Below are positions 5,001-20,600 of a stretch of 21,166 nt of DNA, in pieces. Source of the stretch: Nanobdellota archaeon (GTDB taxonomy: Archaea; Nanobdellota; Nanobdellia; Woesearchaeales; JAHWHD01); the NCBI GenBank assembly GCA_034722435.1, contig JAYENX010000031.1, positions 9,071 to 30,236 on the forward strand, read 5' to 3'. A program made the translations under genes and the position numbers. Under the pieces are notes generated by a model. The model was given only the letters and a program-made list of their open reading frames with translations, searched no databases and was not told the DNA's origin. The stretch's first letter is position 1. Each line of letters starts with the position of its first letter.

Positions 5001-6951
5001 CAGGAACATAATCATATAGATAAGAAGTGTAAAGTTGATTTGAACCTGACCAAACAAAGTTAAGCACATCATCAGTTGCATTCATATAACCATCTCTATC
5101 ATAATCAAGATATACCAACATAGCTATCTGGTTTGAACCTGAAGCTAGTCTTCCAAAATAGAAGTATAGATTAGTTTCGTCGTATGTGTACGCGAATTTA
5201 ATCATATCCCTATCCGCAGTGTCAACAGAGTCTGCATCTCCTGTTAAAGCACTAGGATCTGTGACGTAGTTAAGTGGGTTTGATAACACAGATTGCCAGT
5301 CTGCTAAATCTCCATCAGGAGTAACAGTTACTGAAGTAATGCCTGAACCATCCCCTAATTCTGAGCAACTAGGAGTTACGTTATCAATAACGTTAAGATA
5401 AACTGTGCTGTCGTATAAAGTAGAACTTCCAGTTTCGTTATACAATAATGTATAATTCCAATTACCAAGGAAATGTGTCCGAGGTTCGTAAATAATTAAC
5501 TGTTCAGGACCTACCCAAGATTTAGGACCCTCTACTAAAGTTCCGTTTCTTTCAATATAATAATAACCGCCTGAACCTGACAAGGTCCATTCTAGAGTTG
5601 TTTCTTCACCAATCTCAACAGTTTGGTCATCTGGCTGAGTAATGTTCAAAGGTGGTGCGCCAGTGTAAGTTACATTGAAATAAAGTACATCCCAGTAAGC
5701 AGTCTCAGTAGTATCGGCCCCTGCAGGAGTTCTGTCAATCTCTGATTTTGCTAAAGCTCTTGTTCCAGTAGTGTTAAAAAAACTATCGCAAGTCCAGGTT
5801 TCAAGAGTGGTTATGTTTGTACACGTAACTCCCGGATTGGTAGTTATACCTGGACAAACAGTTGAAGCTGCAGTATAAGATACGCCGCCATCGGCATCTA
5901 CCGAAATGTCACATGATTGACCATTTGCAACATCAACCCACCATTCATAACAAATAAATACCTCGTCAATCGATTCACAAAAATCTACTGATGTATCTAC
6001 AGATTCAATTCTAACACCTGCGTAAACACTTTTACCATAAGTGTGAGCCTCTGTTACTCCGTCATCAGATTCAAGATATCCCCCATTTGTTTCGTTACAG
6101 GCTATGTTGAAAGTACCTAATGCTTGCCGGTCTTCAGCTGAGCAAGTGCTTACAGTCTCTGCAAAACCCGGATCGTCAGGCGTTAAGATGAATGTATATT
6201 CTTGACCAGGAATAAGCCCTGTTTGAAATAGAACCCATTCACCATAACAGTGTTGCTCGTCAAAGTTCCAATCTTTACATTTGTAAAGTTCTGTGCCAGT
6301 AGCAGTTACTGTAACTGTTGCTTCAGTAAATTTTGAAGGAGTTGGATCGATTGAATAAACTTTTTTATATTTTCCAAACGGCTCAACATCTTCAACTTTG
6401 ACCAATCCCGCAGTATTTTTTGAAACTTCCACACCTTTGAACTCAATCTTTTTTACGTGTTTATTATTTATATCAACATCAATATTGTATTTACCTTTTG
6501 TAAGTTGAGTATTTGAAAGGCCCGTTGTTTGAATAATAAAATTGTTGTTTTTATCTTTAACAGTTATCAAAGCATCCACTCTTTTTTGTTTACTGTCTTT
6601 AACTATTAATGAAGTTTTAAGAATAACAGGTTCGGAAGAAGCATCAGAAAAACTCGCTTCTTCAATAATTATTTCTGTAATATTGTTAATGGTTAAATTA
6701 TTAATAGTTAATTCTAAAGATTCATTGATTGATTCAATAAGAGTTTTATTTAATGATTGGTTCAAGATTAAACTTAAAGTTTCATCAGTAGTGTTTATAG
6801 TTTCATTAATAGTAACATTTCCGTTTTCAACAAAGAAACCAGTGATTGAAGGACTGTTACTGATAAAGATTGCTATAACTAATAATGCCAAGAATGGTGC
6901 AAGATTTAAGAAGACTTTTTTCAAGTTCCCATCGTTAGAATTCCGAGTCAT
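1..6951 (-). CDS. Giant secreted/surface multi-Ig-domain protein, >=2317 aa; partial, C-terminus runs off the left edge
   Basis: ATG at 6951 overlaps the upstream TGA (ATGA). Begins MTRNSNDGNLKKVFLNLAPFLALLVIAIFISNSPSITGFFV (N-terminal TM/signal). Stretches I translated (6951-6840, 6180-5880, 5340-5280, 5220-5160, 4920-4860, 2520-2400, 1220-1) are all open in one frame. The ORF track lists no stop-terminated ORF in this frame. Many N-x-S/T sequons and repeated beta-sandwich units. Confidence 0.93.
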   Translation of the reverse strand, partial: MTRNSNDGNLKKVFLNLAPFLALLVIAIFISNSPSITGFFVENGNVTINETINTTDETLSLILNQSLNKTLIESINESLELTINNLTINNITEIIIEEASFSDASSEPVILKTSLIVKDSKQKRVDALITVKDKNNNFIIQTTGLSNTQLTKGKYNIDVDINNKHVKKIEFKGVEVSKNTAGLVKVEDVEPFGKYKKVYSIDPTPSKFTEATVTVTATGTELYKCKDWNFDEQHCYGEWVLFQTGLIPGQEYTFILTPDDPGFAETVSTCSAEDRQALGTFNIACNETNGGYLESDDGVTEAHTYGKSVYAGVRIESVDTSVDFCESIDEVFICYEWWVDVANGQSCDISVDADGGVSYTAASTVCPGITTNPGVTCTNITTLETWTCDSFFNTTGTRALAKSEIDRTPAGADTTETAYWDVLYFNVTYTGAPPLNITQPDDQTVEIGEETTLEWTLSGSGGYYYIERNGTLVEGPKSWVGPEQLIIYEPRTHFLGNWNYTLLYNETGSSTLYDSTVYLNVIDNVTPSCSELGDGSGITSVTVTPDGDLADWQSVLSNPLNYVTDPSALTGDADSVDTADRDMIKFAYTYDETNLYFYFGRLASGSNQIAMLVYLDYDRDGYMNATDDVLNFVWSGSNQLYTSYLYDYVPAVSPGDQMFGDGYNMPGSITNSRILESKVLGGAESGVELETKVLWSDLGLSGITSINFKGAAARGSGGNLPDQLTDNIGELLTPTSTAFLFKPDNEKATTNGTIVYYAHDLMNCGNVQSTIDLYNISSQGWDVKLHYPDSSETEVTDTNGNGIPDITLDVQEYTTLIVEITVPSVVSTGTIDTTNITGQASNYTSTVIDTTTINNIAILPKLYTVSTSQNMNISVNYTIYNYQAISDTINIYSLSSNAWNTYIYYNNSLLTDTNADGFVDTGLLEPLQSKKIELLVEVPVAAVIGTNDSTSIQINSSADPSIFDTSYANSTVYDRLILEPSGYNETVTAGSIHYYEFNITNNWYEPDYINLQYTDTLGWEKTFLDKYYAPLEDSNSDGYADILLEQLGDLEKIFLKVVVPNDAPMGMDEITYIYANSSLDSTVFKTATINNTPRGVALYNDSGRTNLQDVFAIYSTVYAKAFYLQGLSEVYFAWFDGINYVRISPNITVDGSGNADDLIITNSTTYPGVWTIFVYDSSTDAEISRRTFNLTDYVPPSATLISPQPGSIYGYNTTIELAVYASDDILLTELVEAEVVDPEGNITYVFLENAVGDKYNTTFTLGELDGQYNVTFFIRDVAGNLNDSVTTYFIGSDDTPPSMTIHYPGDNAVDVNGNVSFNITSTDDNALQSIELYINGVINQTQSISGIYNETLFEVNELSDGYYNWTIISYDSMNYNQTITRSFLVNTTAAVTINTTTFTGNTTDWNDVPDITNVCDGTAILDAVDDRIRWWDCVDASSIDFDVSVNLTYNLVEIEFGLDDSFNASAEIVMRGLTWDFAPLVYVDGIWCNETCSDVTFDIATGTAIFNVTHFSNYTTVGNSQLEIWDQTDTDKDNLTKYTDSLVAFYANYTTLNKAEPIIGTCTITFNDLIDQPMVYNATSLLYEYNRTFATANIFEYNVTCTGGQTITLTDDVTITSVDTFAPEVNLNYPINYYNTSDTSILFNWTSVDDSTTTMFCNLTIDGLINITDISTINATPTTQIVLGFNDGLHSWNLSCTDDSCNTNTSETRTFTVDTQAPQWSNNLTSPISLVTYSSGQSYEFNVTWTDTGVGLDAVIIEHDFGGTLTNTTIVTSIGSEFYYTYSDLAAGTYTWREYSNDSLNNLNETDAWLYVINKATPVLTLEANPSWSEIYGTQTTVNCTANTLQVTPQLYLDGTLVSNPHQTILGAGIYNYTCNVTTTENYTSAQTSNLMTIAKATSEVNLSLNNVDGDIIANSCDFIDINATLVTPLAGYIEIYNNGTLINAGLSPLNNYTEFNESGSYNITAHYPATENYTESFETHFINVLSDNPPAVDLNYPINYYNTSDTSILFNWTSVDDSTTTMFCNLTIDGLINVTDISTINATPTTQIVLGFNDGLHSWNLSCTDDSCNTNTSETRTFTVDTQAPQWSNNLTSPISLVTYSSGQSYEFNVTWTDTGVGLDAVIIEHDFGGTLTNTTIVTSIGSEFYYTYSDLAAGTYTWREYSNDSLNNLNETDAWLYVINKATPVLTLEANPSWSEIYGTQTTVNCTANTLQVTPQLYLDGTLVSNPHQTILGAGIYNYTCNVTTTENYTSAQTSNLMTIAKATSEVNLSLNNVDGDIVLDLNDFADLNATLVSPIIGYIELYNNGTLINAGLSP

Positions 6952-7247
6952 TTTCTAACGAATACCTCTCTTTTTTTAATAGGGCATTTCCAAATTTCAA
7001 AAAACTGGTCAAGGTCAGGTTCAAATTCTTTAGAAACCATTAGAACTGTTCGACCAAGATGGTCAACATTGAATCTTTTAACAACACCAGATTTACCATC
7101 ACGACCTTTAAGTGCATAGTAGAAACGAACTTTATCTTTCTTTTCTAGATGCAAAGTAGAATATGTATAAATAATAAACTCTCTAAGATTCGTTAATTTT
7201 TCACCTCTTTTTTCACTCAAGCTGTTAATTAAGTTAACACAAGACAT
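6948..7247 (-). CDS. Small basic cytoplasmic protein, possibly ferredoxin-like (Cas2/VapD-like) fold; start codon uncertain
   Basis: Core FIIYTYST..KVRFYYALKGRDG..GVV..LGRTVLMV..FFEIW..VFV fits a beta-alpha-beta-beta-alpha-beta pattern. No TM segment. Stop codon overlaps the giant gene's ATG. The track ATG (7247) overlaps a predicted TATA box. Confidence 0.8.
   Translation of the reverse strand: MSCVNLINSLSEKRGEKLTNLREFIIYTYSTLHLEKKDKVRFYYALKGRDGKSGVVKRFNVDHLGRTVLMVSKEFEPDLDQFFEIWKCPIKKREVFVRK
7223..7239. promoter_or_regulatory. Operator-like palindrome TGTTAA-n5-TTAACA containing TAACTTAATTAAC (minus strand)
   Basis: 6-bp arms just downstream of the TATA box. The 13-mer matches the RHH-operon operator arm at 12 of 13 positions. 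Confidence 0.45.
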
Positions 7248-7260
7248 ATTTAAAGGTTTC
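7247..7260 (-). promoter_or_regulatory. Archaeal BRE + TATA box for the small-gene/giant-gene operon
   Basis: Minus strand reads GAAACC-TTTAAATA (TATA at 7254-7247). Confidence 0.65.
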
Positions 7261-7585
7261 TATGTTACGAAAGAAACAACAAGACTTGAAAACAGAAAGA
7301 AAGTTAAATTAATTCACACAGAAAAACAACAAAAAGATATTCGTTAACCTATTTAACATAAAGAATATATGAAATAAATTAAAATCAAAAGAAAATGGTC
7401 TTTAAAATATACGTTTAACAATCCCATATTGAATAATTCTTCATATGTTTAAAAACATTGCGATTTAAAATTAATTGAAGAGTGTTATAGATGTAAAATT
7501 AATTAATTATTAAACATTTAGTAGCAATAAAATTAAAAGAAAAATTTGAATAGCATTTAGTAATGTTTTACTATGCCTGACATTT

Positions 7586-7600
7586 CCAAACATTTATATA
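7586..7600 (+). promoter_or_regulatory. BRE + TATA box for the 271-aa gene (leaderless geometry)
   Basis: CCAAACA-TTTATATA (TATA 7593-7600). ATG lies 25 nt downstream and no SD is present. Confidence 0.7.
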
Positions 7601-7625
7601 CATAAATAAGGTAAATTTATCGAAT

Positions 7626-8441
7626 ATGAGAAAAGAGGTAAGTACTCACACTTTAATAATAATATCAATATTCTTTGTTCTTATAGCAATCGCGGTAACT
7701 ATTTCTTTTTTATCAGAATATAATTTAGATTGGAATTCGGTCACAGGTAATGTAGTAGGATTAGCAGAGGTTGATGTTGTATGTTTAGTAGGAATTTCAA
7801 TGCCTGTTAATCACATTAATTTTGGTGCTGTTCCACAAAGTTATTTTGATGATACAACAGATAATAATCCTGAACCAATGATTATACAAAATGATGGAAG
7901 TATAAAAGTTGATGTTTCAATTGCAAGAGATGAGACTAGTACAGCTCTTTTTAGTGGAACAGGCGGAGGAGATAACACTTCAAGTTTTCAATTCAAAGCT
8001 GATTACTCTAATGAAACAGGAGCTTTTAATTATGCAGAATCTTTAACAGACTGGACATACGTGCCTGGAACTGATGGTTTGATTGCGATCACAGGTCTTA
8101 ATTATTCGGACAGTTATGATTCGGCTGAGATTGATCTTAAAATTCAAGTCCCTTATAATGAACCATTAGGTAAGAAAAACGAAACATTAAATTTTATTGC
8201 AACAGCTTCAGAAGGTGCAATATGCGGGGATGAAGATGGTAGTTGTAGAGATAAGTTTACAGAGTGCGCTGAAAGTTGTGCACCTCCAGATTCTAATTGT
8301 TATATCAGTTGCGGTCAAATCTTTGGAAGTTGCGTAAGTGTAAGTTGTACAGACCAATTACAAACTTGTAAAAATGATTGTACGGATGCTAATTGTAGAA
8401 CGGCATGTAACGTAGAGTTCAAAGAATGTACATCATTATAG
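7626..8441 (+). CDS. Exported pilin/WxL-like subunit with a Cys-rich C-terminal extension (candidate minor or tip subunit)
   Basis: N-terminal TM, then VTGNVVGLAEVDV, INFGAV..QNDG..VDVSI and IQVPYNEPLGKKNETLNFIA. Clear paralog of 8699-9283. 13-Cys tail. Confidence 0.9.
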   Translation: MRKEVSTHTLIIISIFFVLIAIAVTISFLSEYNLDWNSVTGNVVGLAEVDVVCLVGISMPVNHINFGAVPQSYFDDTTDNNPEPMIIQNDGSIKVDVSIARDETSTALFSGTGGGDNTSSFQFKADYSNETGAFNYAESLTDWTYVPGTDGLIAITGLNYSDSYDSAEIDLKIQVPYNEPLGKKNETLNFIATASEGAICGDEDGSCRDKFTECAESCAPPDSNCYISCGQIFGSCVSVSCTDQLQTCKNDCTDANCRTACNVEFKECTSL

Positions 8442-8484
8442 AAAAGTTTAAAAATTGAAATATAAATTAATATATAAAAGGAGG
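8441..8484 (+). promoter_or_regulatory. Internal promoter candidate and strong Shine-Dalgarno for the 69-aa gene
   Basis: GAAAAG-TTTAAAAA (8441-8454). AGGAGG at 8479-8484, 8 nt before the ATG at 8493. Confidence 0.6.
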
Positions 8485-8492
8485 ACATTAAG

Positions 8493-8702
8493 ATGATAAA
8501 GAATTTATTAGCGGTTTTAATTATAGTTGCGATAGTGATCTCTTTAGCAGGCGTGTTTTTAGTTTTGAATACAAACGATGCGCCAGATGTAAAAATTGCT
8601 GCAGGAACTGCAAAAGTTAATGTTATAGCGGCATCAAACATTCCCGCTTCAACAGGTCAAGCAATTGTAAATGTTATTGAAAATACGGAGGTAGTAAAAT
8701 GA
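8493..8702 (+). CDS. 69-aa membrane peptide: TM helix plus two tandem G-x-A-x-V-N-V-I strands
   Basis: Strong SD and hydrophobic N-terminus. GTAKVNVI and GQAIVNVI recur at a 17-aa period. ATGA overlap with the next gene. Confidence 0.85.
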   Translation: MIKNLLAVLIIVAIVISLAGVFLVLNTNDAPDVKIAAGTAKVNVIAASNIPASTGQAIVNVIENTEVVK

Positions 8703-9283
8703 AAGAAGAGATTTCAAATAAAACATTAGCAATCCTTGTTATTATAGCAGTCATAGTTTCAATAGGAACAACTGTTACACTCTTGACAAGATTAGATTCA
8801 GGTGCAACAGGTGCAGCAACAGGATTAGCCAAAGTTGATGTAACTGGTTTGGTTGCGATTTCGTTACCAAGTAATACTGTTGATTTCGGTTCAGTTGTAC
8901 AAGGATATACAGCGGACACTACAACTAATAGTCCAGCACCATTAACAGTTCAAAATGATGGCGGTGTACCAGTAAATGTATCCATAGAGAGAGATAATTC
9001 TAGTTCAGCATTATTTAGTGGAACAGGTTCAGGAGATAACACTGCAACGTTCAAGTTTAAGATTGATACAGTAAGCGGAGAACCAAATTCATTCAATTAT
9101 GGGTCTTCAACAACTTCATGGACAAATGTTCCGGGTACAACAGCTATCGAGGATGTCATAACAGATTTAAATTATACAAATACTAATGATATCGCAGAAG
9201 TTGACTTACAAATCAATGTACCGAACGACGAACCATTAGGTTCTAAAAACGAAACTTTAGTTTTTATAGCTGAACAGTCTTAA
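8699..9283 (+). CDS. Exported single-domain pilin/WxL-like subunit (candidate major subunit)
   Basis: GGAGGT SD at 8687-8692 and ATGA coupling. TM, then ATGAATGLAKVDV, VDFGSV..QNDGGVPVNVSI and INVPNDEPLGSKNETLVFIA. Confidence 0.92.
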   Translation: MKEEISNKTLAILVIIAVIVSIGTTVTLLTRLDSGATGAATGLAKVDVTGLVAISLPSNTVDFGSVVQGYTADTTTNSPAPLTVQNDGGVPVNVSIERDNSSSALFSGTGSGDNTATFKFKIDTVSGEPNSFNYGSSTTSWTNVPGTTAIEDVITDLNYTNTNDIAEVDLQINVPNDEPLGSKNETLVFIAEQS

Positions 9284-9285
9284 AA

Positions 9286-9302
9286 TTTTTTTATTTTTAT
9301 TT
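9286..9302 (+). terminator. Oligo-T archaeal terminator candidate after the 194-aa gene
   Basis: TTTTTTTATTTTTATTT directly after the TAA at 9281-9283. Confidence 0.55.
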
Positions 9303-9305
9303 AAA

Positions 9306-10439
9306 ATGAAAAAAGTTTTAATTTTTATTTTGTGTATTCTAATTTGTCCAGTATTAGTTAGTGCTATAGGTATTGGACCTCCGAGACAAACTATAGAATT
9401 TCAAGCAGGTTTAGAGAAAGAGTTAATATTTTTCGTAGTTAATACCGAACAATTAGATTTAAGCGTAAGTATGTATTCTAAGGGCGAACTTGCTGAATTT
9501 ATAACAATTGAAAACAATCAGTTCAATCTTAAACCTGGAGAAAAAAAGGATGTTGCAGTAAAATTAAAATTACCCTTTAAGATTGATACTCCTGGAAAAA
9601 ACCTTATAAAGATTGGGGCTCTCGCATCACCAAAAAGTTCAAAAGATGCAACTGTCGCCGCAAAAGCAGGTGTCGAATCTCAATTATATATAGATGTGCC
9701 TTATGAAGGTAAATATTTGACAGCATCTTTAAACGCAAATAATGCAAAAGTAGGAGAAAATATTAACTTTGCGATCAATTTAAAAAATAATGGTTTAGAA
9801 AATATTGATTCAGTTAGCGGTATAATAAAAATATATGATTCTGAAAGTGACAAAGTTTCAAGTGTTAATGTTGTCTCAAAAAGTGTTAATGCAGGAGAAA
9901 GTGAAAAACTAGAAGCATCATGGAACACTAAAAATGTTAAACCAGGGTCATATAAAGCTATTGCAGATATTGACTTTGATGGAAATAAAAAGAGTATTGA
10001 AGCAAGTTTTAATGTTGGAGATGTTCTTATTGAAATAATAGATTTGAAAAATAATGATTTTAAACCAGGCGATATTGCTAAATTTACAATAACCGTGCAA
10101 AGTAAATGGAATAAAAAAATATATAACGCGTTTTCTTTAATTGAGGTTTATGATATGCAAGGAAATCTTCAAGGGGAAACAGAAAGTAAAAAAATAGATA
10201 TAGGTGCATGGGAACGAAAAGATATTGAAGCTTTTTGGGATTCAACAGGGGCAGTATCTGGAGATTATAAAGTAAAAGTTGTTCTTAATTATGAAGGTAA
10301 AACTTCTGAAAAAAATTTTAACATTACAGTTAAAGAGAAAAGTAGTTATGGATTAATAATCTTAAGTATTATCGTTGTTATGTTAATGATAGTGGTTGCG
10401 TGGTTTAAATGGGAAAAGTCAAGAAAGAAAAAGCGATAA
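9306..10439 (+). CDS. Membrane-anchored three-Ig-domain protein, PapD-like / DUF916-DUF3324 (WxL-interacting)-like architecture
   Basis: SPase I-type signal (VSA|IGIGP) and PapD-like opening IGIGPPRQTIEF..FFVVN. Two CARDB-like repeats (N-x-G..WNT..PGSYK and W..GAVSGDYKVKV). C-terminal TM plus basic tail. Confidence 0.9.
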   Translation: MKKVLIFILCILICPVLVSAIGIGPPRQTIEFQAGLEKELIFFVVNTEQLDLSVSMYSKGELAEFITIENNQFNLKPGEKKDVAVKLKLPFKIDTPGKNLIKIGALASPKSSKDATVAAKAGVESQLYIDVPYEGKYLTASLNANNAKVGENINFAINLKNNGLENIDSVSGIIKIYDSESDKVSSVNVVSKSVNAGESEKLEASWNTKNVKPGSYKAIADIDFDGNKKSIEASFNVGDVLIEIIDLKNNDFKPGDIAKFTITVQSKWNKKIYNAFSLIEVYDMQGNLQGETESKKIDIGAWERKDIEAFWDSTGAVSGDYKVKVVLNYEGKTSEKNFNITVKEKSSYGLIILSIIVVMLMIVVAWFKWEKSRKKKR

Positions 10440-10825
10440 TAATTCTTGCTATTGTTATATTAGTAGTAGTAGCCGTATCTTATTTAGTTTATAACATGTT
10501 AAAGCCAGACGATATTCAAGTTATAGATATGACCATTAAAGTAGGAAATTATACAGGTTTTGATGTTAACACCAGTTATTTAATATTCGGAACAGTTGTT
10601 CCAGGCGGTTATTCTAAAAGAAGTATTAAGATAAAAAATATAGATGATAAAAAGCACAATGTTGAAATTGTTACTGAAGGAGAACTTTCAGATTGGACAA
10701 AGATTTCAAATAATAACTTTATAATTAATAATGGCGAAATTAAAGATGTTGATGTTACTATTTTTATTCCTGAAAGATCAGATATGAGAAAATATGATGG
10801 GAAATTGGCAATAATATTTAGATAA
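10409..10825 (+). CDS. TM-anchored single pilin-like Ig domain
   Basis: N-terminal TM, LIFGTVVPGG..IKIKN, terminal TIFIPERSDMRKYDGKLAIIFR. Overlaps the previous gene by 31 nt, so the start is approximate. Confidence 0.85.
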   Translation: MGKVKKEKAIIILAIVILVVVAVSYLVYNMLKPDDIQVIDMTIKVGNYTGFDVNTSYLIFGTVVPGGYSKRSIKIKNIDDKKHNVEIVTEGELSDWTKISNNNFIINNGEIKDVDVTIFIPERSDMRKYDGKLAIIFR

Positions 10826-10895
10826 TGTAGTTTATTTGTATCTTATTGTATTTTAAAAAATAATTTCGAATTATTCTATTTATTGCAATAATGTT

Positions 10896-12221
10896 CTATT
10901 TTTTGTTATTAAAATCTTTAGTTTTGAATCTTCTAAATCCTGTATAAACAGTTATTAGAATAACCGATAAAATGGCTACAACTAGTAATAGATTAAAGAA
11001 AGGTATTGGTATCCACAGTCCGGGTTTTTCAATATTTATGGGTTGTACAGATTCTATAAAACCTGAATCGCAAGATCTCGAATCAACAGGTTTAGTTTTT
11101 CTCATTACCTTGAGTATCTTTCCTTCAGCAACTAGTTTATCACATTTATTTGAATCATAACAATTTCTGGTTTGTTTTCCATCAACACAAATAGACCATT
11201 CTCCGCAAATCCAGAACTCTTCACAAGTAGGTGGAGGGTTTGAGGGTGAAAATGATGAAGCTCTACTAGCTGCTCTTGTTATAGGATTAGGGCCAATACC
11301 TAGCCCTGGGTCGGCAGGTTCTAAAAATATAGTAGTGCTCCGAGAACCGTTAGTAAGATTAGCAAGTACTGTCCAGTTATCATCATTACAATAACGTTCT
11401 GTAAAGTTCCAATTTAAGCATTTGAAAAGTTGAAAACCTTGACTATTATCAAAACTTAATTGTACTTCCATGTTTGAAAAATGAGTTATCAAAGGATTAA
11501 CAACCACCAGCCTGTTCCATTTACGTTCATCTATCGAATCTATACCTAAAAAATCGCCAATAGTTCCAACATTGATAAAATCGTAGAATATAATTTTGTC
11601 CAAACCTCTGTAATTATAAGGATTTATTTCTATAGTATAACTCATACCCCATAAGAATGAAAGGTTATAAATCTCGTCATCGATTGCAATCAATCTATCA
11701 TCGCTGTCTCTATAGACTAATATCTCTCCGTCACCAGTTTTATTAGGCGCTTCAACTAATCTTCCAAAAGCTTCATAAGGAGGGAGTATTTCGATAATTT
11801 TGTCCCTATTATTAGTATATTCGTTAAGATCTTTAGCGAGTAGAGTATAATTATCATAAGCCATCCCGCATGTATCCCAGATTGTGTTAAATGAACCTGA
11901 ACCGTCTGTGCTAAGATTTATAGGATAGTTTGCGATTACAGAACCGGTTGAATTTAAAATATAAAATTCAATAAGTCCATCATCTGTAAAATGAGACCCC
12001 AGTATGGAAATATTAATACCAGGGGAATAAATCTCGTGTTCAGTATAAAGAGATGATTCTGGCCTCACAACATTAAGTAAGATATTTGCGGCAGCAGTAT
12101 GACCTACAATTTCTGGCTGTTTTAATAAAATTGAAAAACTTGAAATCGTAATAGCTATCCAAATTATAATTAGTGCCAGAATTAATCTTGAATTTACCTC
12201 ATAACCCCTCTTTTTAACCAT
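10896..12221 (-). CDS. Surface protein: TM/signal, lone strand, MG2-like Ig domain, KC-WNF-C-W module, TSP1-like Cys motif, C-terminal TM
   Basis: YSPGINISI..DGSGSFNTIW; LFKCLNWNFTERYCNDDNW..EPADPGLG; CEEFWICGEWSICVDGKQTRNCYDSNKC; C-terminal hydrophobic helix plus basic tail. Confidence 0.92.
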   Translation of the reverse strand: MVKKRGYEVNSRLILALIIIWIAITISSFSILLKQPEIVGHTAAANILLNVVRPESSLYTEHEIYSPGINISILGSHFTDDGLIEFYILNSTGSVIANYPINLSTDGSGSFNTIWDTCGMAYDNYTLLAKDLNEYTNNRDKIIEILPPYEAFGRLVEAPNKTGDGEILVYRDSDDRLIAIDDEIYNLSFLWGMSYTIEINPYNYRGLDKIIFYDFINVGTIGDFLGIDSIDERKWNRLVVVNPLITHFSNMEVQLSFDNSQGFQLFKCLNWNFTERYCNDDNWTVLANLTNGSRSTTIFLEPADPGLGIGPNPITRAASRASSFSPSNPPPTCEEFWICGEWSICVDGKQTRNCYDSNKCDKLVAEGKILKVMRKTKPVDSRSCDSGFIESVQPINIEKPGLWIPIPFFNLLLVVAILSVILITVYTGFRRFKTKDFNNKK

Positions 12222-12493: not shown

Positions 12494-12614
12494 TGTTAAT
12501 ATTAAGATTTCTAATGAACTGCATAAAAAGATTAAAGTGAAATGTGCAATTAATAGCATAACACTCAAAGATTTTGTAATAAAAAGTTTGAAAAAGAAAT
12601 TGAAAAATGGATAA
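12486..12614 (+). CDS. Ribbon-helix-helix DNA-binding protein 2 (42 aa; not in ORF track)
   Basis: MVNVNIKISNELHKKIKVKCAINSITLKDFVIKSLKKKLKNG. 26 of 43 aligned positions identical to RHH1 (hand count). 8-nt overlaps with both neighbours. Confidence 0.88.
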   Translation: MVNVNIKISNELHKKIKVKCAINSITLKDFVIKSLKKKLKNG

Positions 12615-13791
12615 AAAGATTGCTTGGATAGTTATTGGAATAATAGGTTTATTATCTATTAACGTAGCTTTTGCTTTTGATTTAGTCACAGGCGGTTTTA
12701 TTTATTCTCAAGGTTCGTTCACAGTTGACAATATTGCACCCGTAATTGATGTTATTAGCGAGATTATAGGGGATGAAGGAGATTTAATAACTATAAACGC
12801 TAATGTTTCTGATCCTAATGGCGATCCAGTTACAATAAGCTATAGTCTTCCATTCAATGAATCAGGACAATGGCAAACTATAATTGGAGATGGAGGAGTT
12901 TATCAAGTAACGGTTTCTGCTTCAGATGGGACTCTTAACAGCACTGAAAATGTAATTGTTAAGATTGTACCATACTGCGGTGATGGAATATGCAGTGCTA
13001 ACAATAGTGAAACTTGTAGCAATTGTGCAACTGATTGTGGAGAATGTGCTAGTTCTAGTAACGGAGGAAGAAAAAGGGACAAAGAAATAATTCCAGAACC
13101 TGAACTTGAAAATGAAATAGAAGAAGAAGAAGAAGAAGAAGAAGAATCTACAGAAGATGGTCAAGAGCAAGGAATGTCAGAAATTGAAAAAGTTTCAGAG
13201 GATGAAAAAGATGAGAAAGGGGTTTTAATAGTATCAGAAGATTTAGGTGTCGATGTGAACATAATTAAGGATGGCGAAGGAAAAAAAGGTGTTGATACCA
13301 GTACATCAGACACCATAAGAATTAAAATAAACATAGTACAATCCTTAGGTATTAAGGAAGATACCACTATTAAAGTTAAATATTTAATAATACCAATTAA
13401 AGATAATATTATAACAGCTAACGCAATTTATGATGATTATGCAGATGCTTTAGTTGAGTCATCGTATTCTTTTTATTTAGAAGAGTATGTGGAAGTTTCA
13501 GCTGAAAATATCAACTTGATACGAGAGATAGATATACCAGAACATCTCAAATCTGGAAAGTATAAGCTCGTTATAGTTGTAGAACACGAGGGCAGAGTAG
13601 CAATTGACGAAACAGAGTTTGTTGTGCCTAAAAGAATCGATTTAGAGCAGTCATTAATAAAAGATGTTTCTAATAAATTATTAACAGGCATAATAGCGAT
13701 TATAGTTTTAATTACACTATTCTTAAAAGTAAAAGAAGAAAATGAACGTAAGAATAAAGAAAAAAAGTTGAAGAAAAGAAAAAAGAAATAA
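12607..13791 (+). CDS. Surface protein: signal/TM, cadherin-like Ig domain, CGDG-C Cys motif, acidic linker, Ig domain, C-terminal TM
   Basis: NIAPVI..VSDPNGDPVT..VTVSASDG; YCGDGICSANNSETCSNCATDCGEC; poly-Glu; IP.HLKSGKYKLVIVV; TM plus Lys-rich tail. Confidence 0.92.
   Translation: MDKKIAWIVIGIIGLLSINVAFAFDLVTGGFIYSQGSFTVDNIAPVIDVISEIIGDEGDLITINANVSDPNGDPVTISYSLPFNESGQWQTIIGDGGVYQVTVSASDGTLNSTENVIVKIVPYCGDGICSANNSETCSNCATDCGECASSSNGGRKRDKEIIPEPELENEIEEEEEEEEESTEDGQEQGMSEIEKVSEDEKDEKGVLIVSEDLGVDVNIIKDGEGKKGVDTSTSDTIRIKINIVQSLGIKEDTTIKVKYLIIPIKDNIITANAIYDDYADALVESSYSFYLEEYVEVSAENINLIREIDIPEHLKSGKYKLVIVVEHEGRVAIDETEFVVPKRIDLEQSLIKDVSNKLLTGIIAIIVLITLFLKVKEENERKNKEKKLKKRKKK
13120..13146 (+). repeat. 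(GAA)9 perfect trinucleotide repeat encoding Glu9
   Basis: Nine consecutive in-frame GAA codons. Confidence 0.95.
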
Positions 13792-13807: not shown

Positions 13808-14317
13808 TCATTCTAAAATAAAACTTTTAATTTCAATATAAGTACCAGGGTCGGTTTCTATAACCACGTCAAGATTGTTCAGATAAAAGGATTCAAAAAA
13901 ACAAGTATCGACGCATTCTGAATAAAATATTCTTGATTGGACATTATTAGTTGTAGAAGTGACTTCGCGATTATCAGAGCCAGATTTAGAAGTTTGGCCA
14001 GTTATTGCAACAGGATTGCTCAATTCTGCATCAGAATCAAAGACAAGCACTCTTTCACCAGAATCAGTTAAAAGGTACACTTTAGCATTTCCGGACCCAG
14101 TAACTTGACCGTTAATTTTTAATGATCTTAATTGAATTGGATCCATATTGTTTTGTTCTAATAATGTGAAAAAACCATTTTCTGTTGCAGATAAGTTAGT
14201 GTTAATTATCCAAGAATCAGAAGAAACAAAACCAGTTATTTCAGGGTCTAAGTATAGCAGTACAAAGCCTAGTGCAAGTATTGCAAAAGCTAGGCCAACA
14301 AACAGTCTTGAGGCCAT
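13808..14317 (-). CDS. TM-anchored single-domain surface protein with an E-C-x-D-T-C motif
   Basis: TM then ITGFVS; LRSLKINGQVTGSGNAKVYL; FYSECVDTCFF. Imperfect TATA (ATTATATA, 14351-14344) upstream. Confidence 0.88.
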   Translation of the reverse strand: MASRLFVGLAFAILALGFVLLYLDPEITGFVSSDSWIINTNLSATENGFFTLLEQNNMDPIQLRSLKINGQVTGSGNAKVYLLTDSGERVLVFDSDAELSNPVAITGQTSKSGSDNREVTSTTNNVQSRIFYSECVDTCFFESFYLNNLDVVIETDPGTYIEIKSFILE

Positions 14318-17626: not shown

Positions 17627-20600
17627 TTAATCACTCCTTATGTTAATAGTTGATTGATAATTTTGAGATATAGTTCCAGAAGGTATGTAACCTCTGAAGT
17701 AAATTTCTTTAGTCTGTTGAACAGAAAGTTTGTAAATTTCTTGGTATGTAGTTGCAAGTTCAGTGTATGTGCCAGTAGCTGTTTCGTTGTATGTTGCATT
17801 TCCTACACCAATTGAATATGAAGAATTTGTCTGACCAATGAAATCTGAACCTGAAAGGCTTATGTTAACGAGGGAGTTACCAGTATTTCTGATATACATA
17901 GGATATGCATCAGAACTGTTCACAGTTTCTAAAGGTAAACCTGAGAATGAAACTGTCGATATGCTTAGTTCATGTGCAATTAGAGTATTATAATAATAGC
18001 TACTGTTTTCTTGATCAGAGTTAGAATCTGTAAGATTAACATCCAAGGTTACGCTCCAGTCTCCAGGATTTCTGAAATAATCCATGTTCCAAGATGTATT
18101 ACATTGCGTTTGTGTCCCAGTAGTTTGAATTATGCCAGTAGCAATATTTAATGTTGGCGAAATATACGAATCTGATGCATTGTAAATCCTTACTTCGCAA
18201 GAATCTATTGCAGTTGTGTTTGTAATGTTTGCTACAAGCGTTACAGTAACATTATTGTCTTCAACAGGGTTTATCTGAAATCCTGCAGTAAGTTCGTCAT
18301 CATCAGGAGTTATTAAGATGTCAGTTATGTTAACCGAAGCCTGACCTAATTGAACTGTAAATGTCCCATTTTTCTCATATGCATTAAAACCTAGACTGCA
18401 ATTTGCATTAATGTAATAATTATAAGTTGTTGCAGATAACGAAGTTGTATCGTAAATATATGTCCAAATATCTTGCGAATCAGGATTCATAGTATAGTTA
18501 ACACCATCAAAATTTAGTAGAACAGTATCAACTGTTCCAAGACTAGTTACATTCACAGTGAATGTGATATTTTCTCCTTGAGTTACAGGATCAGGAGAAT
18601 CGTCTAAAGTGTTAATCCAAATTCCGCAGCTAGTTGTTGAAGCAGTATTGTTAACATCAGTATTATTTATATTTCCAGCATGGTCTTTAGTGTGGACTGT
18701 AATAGTATAATTAGTATTGTCATCTAATCCCGTTGCATTATAGAATGCGTTTGTTGTGTTAATCACATTTGTTCCGTTGATATAAATTATTGTTTCGTTG
18801 AAATCAGCGTCAACAGGGTTTGTCCAAGTCCAATATATTGAAGCAATATCTTGAGATTCATTTTGTAAGTTTGTAACCGAGGCAGGAGGAGATGTGTCAG
18901 ATTCAGTGTAAGTTACATTAAAATAGAATACGTCCCATGTAGCTGTTTCAGTTGAACCCTTACCTGCAGTAGGTCTTGAGAGTTCAGATTTTGCGTATGC
19001 TCTTGTTCCGGATGCTCCAAAAAAGTTTGCACAAGTCCATGTTTCTAGTGAAGTAACATTAGTACAAATTATACCAGGATCGGTTGTTGTTCCTGGGCAG
19101 GTTGTTGTTACCGCAGTATAACTCGCACCTGCATTTGCATCTATACTTATGTCACAATCAGTAGGTGCAGATTGTACTTGCGTACTCCACCATTCATAAC
19201 AGAAGAAAACTTCGTCAACACTTTGACAATTTGTTATGCCTGTATCAACTGATTGAATTCTTACTCCAGCATAAGTACCTTTAGTATAAGTATGAGTTTC
19301 AGTTGTTCCACCATTAGTTTCTAAAGATGAACCGTCTGTTTGGTCGCAAGTTCCTCCGAATGAACCTTTAATGGCCTCGTCTTCAGCTGCACAAGTACTT
19401 ACAGTCTCTGCAAAACCTGGATCGTCAGGAGTTAAAATAAAAGTATAATCTTGTCCCGGTATTAAATCTGATTTGAATAATGACCAAGTACCGAAACAAG
19501 TTTGAGTTGCGAAATTCCAATCCTTACATTTGTAAAGTTCTGTACCTGTTGCAGTTACTGTAACAGTTGCGTTAGTAAAGTTCAGGTTAGTAGGGTCAAT
19601 AGCATAAACTTCAACATAATTATCGAATTCAGGAACATCATCAATTTTGATGTCTGCAGTAAAGTCTTCATAAATTGTTAAATCACGATATTCAATTTCC
19701 TGAACAGGATGATTATTAAGTTTGGTTTTAATATTATATTCGCCTTCTTTGAGAATTTTCTTTGCTTGACCATGATTTTTAGAAGCTTTAACTTCATCAG
19801 TTAAACTGTCAATAAGTTCGATTGTAGCGTCAATCTCTGAACCAGATGCGTCCCTTACAACAGTTGTGAAGTCAACATTTTTCGCAGTACCAAATTCGAA
19901 CGCTTCCGTGTGCGCTCCGACCAAGATTCTGAAACGTTCATCGTTCCAATTGAAAACTGTCAGAGTTATATTTTCATCAGCCGACGAGGTCTTTTTATCA
20001 AGCAAGTATTCGACATTTCCTTTGATGAAAATAGGTAAAGGTTTAGATGAATCATGATGGAATTTAACAGTTAAGTCGTTTGTTTCATCGTCTTTTACGA
20101 TTGAATCAATAATTGCGTCGTATCTTATATCTTCTTTAATTTTCAAGTAAGAAACGTTAGTTACATTATAACCTTCAGCAAAGCTTTGAGTTCCTAATAA
20201 TTCTACTTCGTAATCTTCACCAGGAACAATACTTCTAACTTTAGTCCAACCATCTAAACAAATTTGTTCTAAGAAGTTCCAAGAATCGCACCTGTAAAGT
20301 TCTGACGAGTTTGCAGTTATAATGGCTTTTGCAGATGCAAATTGAACTCTTGGGTCGATTGCGTACTGCTGTACAAAGTCTGGAGAAGTAACTGTTTCAA
20401 CATATTCGAATCCTGCAAGTTCAGTTGTTGTTTCAGTTAAATCAGTTCCTGCAAAAGTTATACTTTTAACAGGATGTGTATCCCCGCTAAAAGACATTAC
20501 TTTAGGATTAATAACAACATCATAATATCCAGATGCAAATTTAACAATGTCCCCGGAATGTCCAGATTCAATCGTTGAATGGTCGTCATAAATTGTTACA

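What the first reader, a model, noticed from the sequence alone, without database searches (positions are those of the whole stretch)
8493..8702. 69-aa membrane peptide made of two naked donor-like strands
After its TM the peptide is almost only GTAKVNVI and GQAIVNVI (17-aa period; similarity also visible in DNA at 8603 and 8654). These match the post-signal strands of both flanking paralogs (GLAEVDVV, GLAKVDVT) but have no domain attached. The gene has a strong SD and is ATGA-coupled to the candidate major subunit. Inference: a membrane-tethered initiator, anchor or two-arm brancher for the socket domains.
Basis: partly seen in the sequence, partly recalled or inferred. Interest (0 to 1): 0.8.

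Follow-up and report, generated by a model that had tools for sequence, protein, structure and literature searches.

The report
Donor-strand-only membrane peptide of archaeal pilus
A conserved 69-residue membrane peptide of a tiny symbiont-type archaeon carries two copies of the strand that neighbouring pilin-like proteins carry once, so it most likely plugs into and anchors a strand-swapped surface fibre, a role so far described only for bacterial pili.

Summary
ORF 8493-8702 encodes an N-terminal membrane helix followed by two G-x-A-x-V-x-V strands 17 residues apart. They have the same register as the post-helix strand of both flanking paralogs. The gene has a GGAGG Shine-Dalgarno site and an ATGA overlap with the 194-aa gene.

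The peptide is real. The cassette 271 / 69 / 194 / 377 / 138 recurs in different genomic contexts, and small helix-plus-strand genes sit directly upstream of 17 of 29 pilin-like genes against 3 of 96 other genes.

Best reading (about 50%): an acceptor-less donor-strand subunit that caps and anchors the fibre base, like ElrB or PamR, but with an N-terminal helix and often two strands.

Strand insertion was not tested because the complex predictor was unavailable. The "one strand per paralog" idea has no comparative support.

This scan has already flagged the archaeal WxL-like system in at least 29 other genomes; look-ups by this peptide's and the 194-aa protein's sequence returned only notes on this window.

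The parts
8480..8484 (+). Shine-Dalgarno GGAGG of the 69-aa gene, 8 nt before the ATG
   Evidence: read from sequence
8493..8702 (+). 69-aa ORF (P0001): N-terminal membrane helix plus two donor-like strands, with no globular domain
   Evidence: A 72%-identical 69-aa homologue lies in the same cassette. The family is aligned in A3 and A6. No Pfam or NCBIfam hit.
8505..8567 (+). Membrane helix, residues 5-25. It is homologous to the N-terminal helix region of the pilin-like paralogs.
   Evidence: sequence reading. hhalign of A2 against A6: 95.7%, E 1e-8 over 35 columns. phmmer/hmmsearch against the pilin N-terminus, E about 0.001-0.02.
8604..8627 (+). Strand 1, GTAKVNVI (residues 38-45). The face A36-G38-A40-V42-V44 matches pilin A40-G42-A44-V46-V48.
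8628..8654 (+). Pro-containing linker AASNIPAST. In relatives it is variable in length, 5-17 residues.
8655..8678 (+). Strand 2, GQAIVNVI (residues 55-62). The family signature is G-x-[AVI]-x-[VL]-N-V-[IVL].
8699..8702 (+). ATGA overlap: the stop of the 69-aa gene overlaps the start of the 194-aa gene. The GGAGG of the 194-aa gene lies at 8687-8691, inside the peptide gene.
7626..8441 (+). 271-aa pilin-like paralog: helix, VTG, donor-like strand GLAEVDVV, acceptor-type domain, Cys-rich tail
8699..9283 (+). 194-aa pilin-like protein: helix, ATG, donor-like strand GLAKVDVT, beta-sandwich domain (residues about 50-194)
   Evidence: AF2 pLDDT 92.8. The domain occurs in 1265 proteins, often as the last domain of giant proteins.
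9306..10439 (+). 377-aa WxLIP-like, membrane-anchored chaperone candidate: cleavable signal peptide, three beta-sandwich domains, C-terminal helix
   Evidence: Present in 203 of 401 genomes of the phylum.
10409..10825 (+). 138-aa protein with an N-terminal helix and one Ig-like domain. It is a conserved fifth gene, weakly similar to part of the 377-aa protein.
17627..18154 (-). C-terminal domain of the >=1179-aa protein, a candidate distant relative of the pilin acceptor domain (possible tip adhesin)
   Evidence: hhalign 73%, E 3e-5, 115 columns. Not found by HMM search of the genome.

Best explanation
The 69-aa protein is an acceptor-less donor-strand subunit of a chaperone-assisted, strand-complemented surface fibre of a DPANN (Woesearchaeota-like) archaeon.

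Proposed mechanism (inferred):
- Its N-terminal helix stays in the membrane with the N-terminus inside and the tail outside.
- One of its extracellular G-x-A-x-V-x-V strands inserts into the open edge or groove of the last pilin-like domain (194 aa or 271 aa). It takes the place that a further pilin's N-terminal strand, or the strand of the membrane-anchored WxLIP-like chaperone (377 aa), would otherwise occupy.
- Because the peptide has no acceptor domain of its own, no further subunit can be added. The fibre base is therefore capped and held on the single archaeal membrane.
- This is the role proposed for ElrB in the enterococcal Elr/WxL pilus and for PamR in CPR bacteria. Here the tether is a transmembrane helix rather than a sortase motif.
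- The second strand, present in about 12 of the 18 aligned family members, gives a second binding site: a second acceptor domain, the chaperone, or a hairpin with strand 1.

Shown: the anatomy of the peptide, its conservation, its tight gene pairing with pilin genes, and the chaperone homology.

Inferred: the groove, the insertion, the lack of cleavage, and the position at the base.
For: 1. The peptide is a real, conserved gene.
- A 72%-identical 69-aa homologue lies in the same five-gene cassette.
- The cassette recurs with different flanking genes.
- Peptides with a helix and 1-2 strands were found in Woesearchaeota, Nanoarchaeota and Undinarchaeota loci.

2. Gene pairing. A small N-terminal-helix ORF lies within -41 to +59 nt upstream of 17 of 29 pilin-like genes, against 3 of 96 other genes in the same loci.

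3. Both strands carry the invariant pilin signature. G42, A44, V46 and V48 of the pilin appear in the same register and with the same small-to-large polarity. The motif is rare in the genome.

4. The helix region is homologous to the pilin N-terminus (hhalign 95.7%). The peptide therefore looks like a pilin N-terminus without the domain.

5. The 377-aa neighbour is related to WxLIP.
- PF11797 matches 20 of 37 family members (best E 3.6e-9) and PF06030 matches 3 of 37.
- There are also two-domain matches to FimC, YadV and SafB, and the protein ends in a C-terminal helix.

6. The 194-aa domain resembles strand-complemented subunits.
- Foldseek's best PDB hits are TLP-1, Csu, the PapG pilin domain, cannulae, FimG/FimA, CupE, TasA and AbpA.
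- Its ESM Atlas structural neighbours include camelysin/TasA (PF12389) and DUF4402 (PF14352) clusters.

7. In other organisms the domain is the extreme C-terminal domain of giant proteins, as WxL is in tip adhesins.

8. Precedents. ElrB is a small protein with a donor strand and a tether but no acceptor domain, and is modelled at the pilus base. PamR is modelled the same way.
Against: - No structural test of insertion was possible.
- In the monomer model the pilin's own strand (residues 42-49) is not in a sheet. That neither proves nor disproves a groove.
- The pilin domain has no Pfam WxL match (0 of 66 members).
- The pilins also carry helix-length N-terminal hydrophobic segments. If these are not cleaved, the pilins are already tethered and a separate anchor is less needed.
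- In distant relatives strand 1 has its own signature, V-x-L-[YF]-V, which differs from the pilin strand.
- Several peptides have [ST]-G just before strand 1, so cleavage there, giving a free peptide, cannot be excluded.
- The peptide gene is translationally coupled to a pilin gene and has a strong ribosome-binding site. That suggests more copies than one per fibre.
Confidence: 0.5

Rival explanations
1. Initiator or pre-assembly cap (TapA-like). The tethered strands occupy the groove of newly exported pilin at about 1:1 stoichiometry. They hold it competent, or nucleate polymerisation at the membrane, rather than ending it.
For: Translational coupling to the pilin gene, and a strong ribosome-binding site. 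TapA's N-terminal strand triggers TasA polymerisation by strand complementation (PMC10151520, listed; not read here). The 194-aa model has TasA/camelysin-like structural neighbours.
Against: The cassette already encodes two chaperone-like proteins, of 377 and 138 aa. In strand-exchange pili that grow from the base, a donor without an acceptor ends growth. No SipW-type gene was seen among the cassette genes.
Confidence: 0.2
2. Processed free peptide. The helix is a signal sequence that is cleaved near the [ST]-G or A-A site before strand 1. This releases a peptide of about 30 residues with two donor strands, which caps or cross-links two acceptor domains (fibre to fibre, or adhesin to fibre).
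For: Many family members have [ST]-G directly before strand 1, and the window peptide has I-A-A before G38. All pilins have an invariant TG after their helix that may be a processing site. The two strands each have a conserved signature of their own.
Against: The hydrophobic segment is 21 residues, which is helix length. The candidate site lies about 13 residues beyond it, which is far for signal peptidase I. No site is conserved across the family. About a third of the members have only one strand.
Confidence: 0.1
3. Not a strand donor. The peptide is a small membrane protein that acts through its pilin-like helix, for example by pairing with pilin helices or with the export or processing machinery. 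Its amphipathic strands only form a local hairpin or oligomer.
For: The strongest profile similarity to pilins is in the helix region. The fold evidence for an acceptor groove is weak.
Against: The strands, not only the helix, are conserved and carry the invariant residues of the pilin strand. The motif is otherwise rare in the genome.
Confidence: 0.12
4. Non-functional remnant of a truncated third pilin paralog.
For: The sequence aligns only to the first 50 or so residues of the pilins.
Against: The size (60-96 aa), the stop position just before the pilin gene, the second strand and the Pro-capped strand are kept across distant lineages. The gene has its own ribosome-binding site.
Confidence: 0.03

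Closest known systems
ElrB of the Enterococcus faecalis Elr/WxL pilus (bioRxiv 10.64898/2026.10.17.759780)
   Same: A small protein made of a donor strand plus a tether, with no acceptor domain. Its strand follows the consensus of the pilins' N-terminal strands, with small residues followed by V/I in alternate positions. It is encoded in one operon with the pilins and a DUF916/DUF3324 chaperone that has a C-terminal helix. It is modelled as the base subunit that ends and anchors the fibre.
   Different: - ElrB has the strand at its N-terminus and an LPxTG sortase signal with a helix at its C-terminus. Here the helix is N-terminal and there is no LPxTG, no sortase and no cell wall.
- Here there are often two strands.
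- There is no sequence similarity.
- The host is an archaeon, whereas the paper reports the system only in Bacillota.
- The pilin domain here has no Pfam WxL match.
PamR of the Pam pilus of CPR bacteria (PMC13278184)
   Same: An usher-less strand-exchange pilus with membrane-anchored chaperones in an ultra-small episymbiont. The last subunit inserts an N-terminal strand into the last pilin and tethers the fibre to the membrane.
   Different: PamR is an RbmA-like folded protein, not a bare peptide. There is no sequence relation, and the host is bacterial.
TapA-TasA of Bacillus subtilis (PMC10151520, PMC9674648)
   Same: An accessory protein supplies a strand resembling the subunit's donor strand. 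The subunit fold is among the structural neighbours of the 194-aa model.
   Different: TapA is a larger folded protein that promotes polymerisation. TasA is exported with SipW. No chaperone of the WxLIP type is involved.
Chaperone-free archaeal strand-complemented filaments: Sulfolobus threads, bundling pili AbpA, cannulae, Tat-fimbriae
   Different: Those systems have no dedicated chaperone gene, and no described subunit consists of a helix plus strand only.

Membership tests
ElrB-type base subunit of WxL/Elr pili | Small protein whose strand follows the pilins' donor-strand consensus | tested here: met
   Both strands carry G-x-A-x-V-x-V, in register with the invariant G42, A44, V46 and V48 of the pilins.
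ElrB-type base subunit of WxL/Elr pili | No acceptor (incomplete Ig-like) domain | tested here: met
   69 aa. There are 44 residues after the helix, made of two strands and a linker. No Pfam or NCBIfam domain.
ElrB-type base subunit of WxL/Elr pili | C-terminal LPxTG sortase signal plus helix | tested here: not met
   No LPxTG. The only hydrophobic segment is N-terminal. The peptide works like ElrB at most; it is not a member.
ElrB-type base subunit of WxL/Elr pili | Operon partner of a DUF916/DUF3324 chaperone and of pilins | tested here: met
ElrB-type base subunit of WxL/Elr pili | Strand docks in the pilin groove (model or experiment) | not testable with these tools
WxLIP chaperone (PF06030 + PF11797 + C-terminal helix), for the 377-aa neighbour | Both Pfam modules above threshold | tested here: inconclusive
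   The window protein matches PF11797 at E 0.0089, 16.4 bits, below the 28.9-bit cut-off. Across the family, PF11797 matches 20 of 37 members (best E 3.6e-9) and PF06030 matches 3 of 37 (best E 4.5e-4).
WxLIP chaperone (PF06030 + PF11797 + C-terminal helix), for the 377-aa neighbour | [quoted passage not shown] | tested here: met
WxL domain (PF13731), for the 194- and 271-aa proteins | Match to the Pfam WxL model | tested here: not met
   0 of 66 family members at E <= 0.1. The only link is a weak language-model lead, score 0.81.
Donor-strand-complemented pilin (chaperone-usher, TasA or AbpA type), for the 194-aa protein | Incomplete Ig-like sandwich with an N-terminal extension | tested here: inconclusive
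Type IV pilin-like protein (class III signal peptide) | Prepilin-peptidase site ([KR]-G/A) before the hydrophobic segment | tested here: not met
   The N-terminus reads MIKN followed directly by the hydrophobic segment, with no such site.

The most novel reading that the evidence does not exclude
The peptide is a bivalent connector. Its two differently conserved strands insert into two different acceptor domains at once, for example a pilin and a giant adhesin's last domain, or two fibres. DPANN cells would then use a bare, membrane-anchored double plug to hold and cross-link their surface proteins on a single membrane. That would be a general non-covalent anchoring device, with no cell wall, sortase or usher.
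Probability: 0.15. Interest if true: 0.85.

Novelty: new variant of a known kind. Interest (0 to 1): 0.62.

Why it matters
Chaperone-assisted strand-exchange pili without an usher were described only in 2026, in Bacillota (Elr/WxL) and in CPR bacteria (Pam). The Elr study reports the system as confined to Bacillota. The strand-linked archaeal fibres known so far are chaperone-free.

This cassette, with homologues of its chaperone-like gene in about half of the 401 sampled genomes of the phylum, would place the same assembly logic in DPANN archaea. The small peptide would answer how such a fibre is ended and held on a cell that has neither wall nor sortase.

The peptide is also a minimal and easily testable part. 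Synthetic strands and a truncated pilin domain are enough to test strand insertion. Surface fibres and giant adhesins are thought to mediate host attachment in these episymbionts, so the anchor bears on how they hold on to their hosts.

Tried and rejected

Searches that found nothing:
- Pfam and NCBIfam give nothing for the 69-, 194- and 271-aa proteins.
- Profile searches of PDB sequences give nothing useful for the pilin or chaperone families.
- An HMM search of the whole genome finds the pilin domain only in the two paralogs.
- The profile search of 5.8 billion proteins with the peptide family returned only 12 hits, all 'hypothetical protein'. The query is short, so this is a lower bound.
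- There is no Rfam family in 7000-11000.

Searches that were not informative:
- Foldseek on the whole 377-aa model was dominated by tandem ASH domains of ciliary proteins. The Foldseek-independent search was needed to find WxLIP.

Ideas rejected:
- The 864-aa and 138-aa 'sockets' are rejected by profile comparison.
- 'One strand per pilin paralog' is rejected. One-strand peptides occur in cassettes with two pilins: L011, L015, L019 and L039.
- The antisense ORF 8315-8641 has no counterpart of consistent size in other loci.

Not attempted:
- dN/dS was not computed. The only close homologue has no retrievable DNA and the others are too diverged.

Full report
**1. Observation**

The window is AT-rich (26-40% GC). 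It is G000 contig C31, from a 1.3-Mb genome whose closest named relatives are Candidatus Woesearchaeota.

ORF 8493-8702 (+) encodes 69 aa:
- Residues 5-25 are a 21-residue hydrophobic segment, with Lys before it and an acidic/polar stretch after it. By the positive-inside rule this predicts N-terminus in and tail out.
- The tail holds GTAKVNVI (residues 38-45) and GQAIVNVI (residues 55-62), 17 residues apart and sharing 6 of 8 residues.
- The DNA copies match at 17 of 24 bases.

The repeat is more than chance. A 6/8 repeat arises in 60 of 20,000 shuffles of the tail. The strict motif G.A.V.V occurs only 12 times in 468,313 ORF residues of the genome, and 4 of these are in this cassette.

- GGAGG lies at 8480-8484.
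- The ATGA overlap with the 194-aa gene is at 8699-8702.
- The GGAGG of the 194-aa gene sits inside the peptide gene, at 8687-8691.

**2. The peptide is a real, conserved gene**

- A 69-aa homologue, 72% identical and keeping both motifs, lies in a contig with the same order: 267 / 69 / 194 / 379 / 140 aa.
- The cassette of [about 270-334 aa] / [68-79 aa] / [about 190 aa] / [about 380 aa] / [131-153 aa] recurs next to unrelated flanking genes: ELP3-type radical SAM, SbcCD, ribose-phosphate pyrophosphokinase.
- In loci fetched through the pilin and chaperone families, I found peptides of 60-96 aa with an N-terminal helix and one or two amphipathic strands. They come from Woesearchaeota, Nanoarchaeota and Undinarchaeota records.
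- Such a gene lies -41 to +59 nt upstream of 17 of 29 pilin-like genes, against 3 of 96 other genes in the same loci. The loci are related, so this is a description, not a probability.
- About 12 of the 18 aligned members have two strands. The others have one.
- Across the family each strand has its own signature. Strand 1 is [ST]-G-x-V-x-[LV]-[YF or polar]-V followed by Pro. Strand 2 is G-x-[AVI]-x-[VL]-N-V-[IVL].
- All database members are annotated 'hypothetical protein'.

**3. Relation to the flanking paralogs**

The 194-aa and 271-aa proteins are 54% identical. Both consist of a helix-length hydrophobic segment, an invariant T-G, a strand G-x-A-x-V-x-V, and a beta domain.

The peptide aligns to the first 50 or so residues of these proteins. 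The family profiles match over the helix region (hhalign 95.7%, E 1e-8).

On the buried face, peptide A36-G38-A40-V42-V44 and S53-G55-A57-V59-V61 repeat pilin A40-G42-A44-V46-V48. This is small-to-large in the N-to-C direction. The published Elr donor strands have the same polarity: [S/T]-x-[G/A]-x-[V/I]-x-F.

The pilins' invariant T-G lies 4 residues before their strand (T37-G38 in the 194-aa protein). It has no fixed counterpart at that position in the peptides, although several have [ST]-G right before strand 1. Whether either protein is cleaved is unknown.

**4. What the system is**

The 377-aa neighbour:
- It has a classical A-x-A signal peptide, three beta-sandwich domains and a C-terminal helix (pLDDT 91.5).
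- Scanning 37 family members against Pfam puts PF11797 (WxLIP_HBD, formerly DUF3324) first, in 20 of 37 members with best E 3.6e-9. PF06030 (WxLIP_PGBD, formerly DUF916) appears in 3 of 37.
- The window protein itself is below threshold (E 0.0089).
- The family occurs in 203 of 401 sampled genomes of the phylum. This tally includes two unpublished genomes, G243 and G396, and no other claim here rests on them.
- It is almost always adjacent to a gene carrying the 194-type domain.

The 194-aa protein:
- The model (pLDDT 92.8) gives Foldseek hits that are nearly all strand-complemented fibre subunits: TLP-1, Csu, the PapG pilin domain, cannulae, FimG/FimA, CupE, TasA and AbpA (E 5e-4 to 2e-2).
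- Its ESM Atlas structural neighbours include camelysin/TasA (PF12389) and DUF4402 (PF14352) clusters and a Saccharimonadota cluster.
- The domain has no Pfam model.
- It occurs in 1265 cluster representatives, very often as the last domain of proteins of up to 4544 aa.
- In this window the C-terminal domain of the >=1179-aa protein is a weak candidate of that kind. The 864-aa and 138-aa proteins are not.

**5. Comparison with what is known**

A literature search found a preprint on the Elr/WxL pilus of E. faecalis (10.64898/2026.10.17.759780). According to it:
- WxL pilins carry an N-terminal donor strand.
- ElrE, a DUF916/DUF3324 protein with a C-terminal helix, is the membrane-anchored chaperone.
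- Tip adhesins carry WxL as their last domain.
- ElrB is a small protein made of a donor strand and an LPxTG tether. It is modelled as the terminating base subunit.
- The system is reported as confined to Bacillota.

A second preprint (PMC13278184) describes the Pam pilus of CPR bacteria. It has membrane-anchored chaperones, and PamR inserts an N-terminal strand into the last pilin and tethers the fibre.

Searches for DPANN or Woesearchaeota combined with donor strand, chaperone or DUF3324 found no description of an archaeal counterpart.

The window cassette maps part for part onto the Elr scheme:

| Window protein | Elr counterpart |
|---|---|
| 271 aa and 194 aa | pilins |
| 377 aa | chaperone |
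| giant proteins ending in the domain | tips |
| 69 aa | ElrB-like donor-only subunit |

The 69-aa peptide is not a member of the ElrB family. It has no LPxTG, its tether is at the opposite end, and there is no sequence similarity.

**6. Mechanism**

In strand-exchange fibres that grow from the base, the groove of the newest subunit is held by the chaperone until the next subunit's strand displaces it. A subunit that has a strand but no groove must be the last one.

The most likely role of the peptide is therefore to cap the last groove and, through its helix, hold the fibre on the membrane. I put this at about 0.5.

A TapA-like initiator or holdase role is the main rival, at about 0.2. It is favoured by the translational coupling to the pilin gene.

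Further rivals:
- A cleaved free double-strand peptide (about 0.1).
- A helix-mediated role without strand donation (about 0.12).
- A dead gene fragment (about 0.03).

The second strand is not essential to the family, because one-strand members exist. Its presence also does not track the number of pilin paralogs. The 'two-arm' idea therefore remains open, at about 0.15 for true bivalent binding.

**7. Limits**

Strand insertion, the groove, the membrane topology and the processing are all inferred. The complex predictor was unavailable and no model coordinates could be inspected.

**8. Earlier notes of this scan**

Notes of this scan on at least 29 other genomes describe archaeal WxL-like chaperone-pilin cassettes. 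Look-ups by this peptide's sequence and by the 194-aa protein's sequence returned only notes on this same window.

**9. Verdict**

The finding is a new variant of a known kind: a donor-strand-only base subunit, here in an archaeon, tethered by a helix and often carrying two strands.

Noticed in passing
G000 contig C57 (1681 nt), outside the window: A second, truncated cassette: a partial 377-like gene (2-1054), a 138-like gene (1015-1467), and then an ORF from 1506 that runs off the contig. That ORF has a helix followed by ITGHATGIAAFELL, a pilin-type N-terminus.
   Followed up: partly
window 17627-18154 (-): The last 175 residues of the >=1179-aa protein align to the pilin-domain profile (hhalign 73%, E 3e-5), so it is a possible acceptor-only tip adhesin. 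Its N-terminal part runs into a stretch of N just beyond the window.
   Followed up: partly
window 10409-10825 (+) and homologues in nearly every locus: The 138-aa protein, with an N-terminal helix and one Ig-like domain, is a conserved fifth gene that overlaps the end of the chaperone-like gene. It is weakly similar to part of the 377-aa protein (E 0.0013-0.003; Cep192_D4 and HYDIN-type hits). It may be a second chaperone-like component with the opposite membrane orientation.
   Followed up: partly
whole genome; in the window at 7626-8441, 8699-9283, 12607-13791, 13808-14317 and the start of the giant gene near 6951: A motif [IVAL]-T-G within 25 residues after an N-terminal helix-length hydrophobic segment occurs in 22 of 298 such ORFs, many of them surface proteins on this contig. 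It is invariant in all pilin-like proteins. It may be a processing or sorting signal.
   Followed up: partly
L010:4608-5705, L012:1015-1854, L013:1915-2232, L008:3393-4238, L009:4477-5328: In Nanoarchaeota, Aenigmatarchaeota and Undinarchaeota loci, the gene after the pilin encodes a helix, then ITG or a similar motif, then a G-x-V-x-V-type strand, followed by an unrelated, often Cys-rich domain. These may be further donor-strand-bearing subunits with other payloads.
   Followed up: no
window 8223-8438 (+): The 271-aa paralog extends the pilin-type domain with a Cys-rich tail. In relatives, other C-terminal extensions replace it, for example in proteins of 325-334 aa.
   Followed up: no
window 8315-8641 (-): A 108-aa antisense ORF spans the end of the 271-aa gene, the intergenic region and the first two-thirds of the peptide gene. 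Antisense ORFs at this place in other loci range from none to 210 aa, so it is probably spurious.
   Followed up: partly
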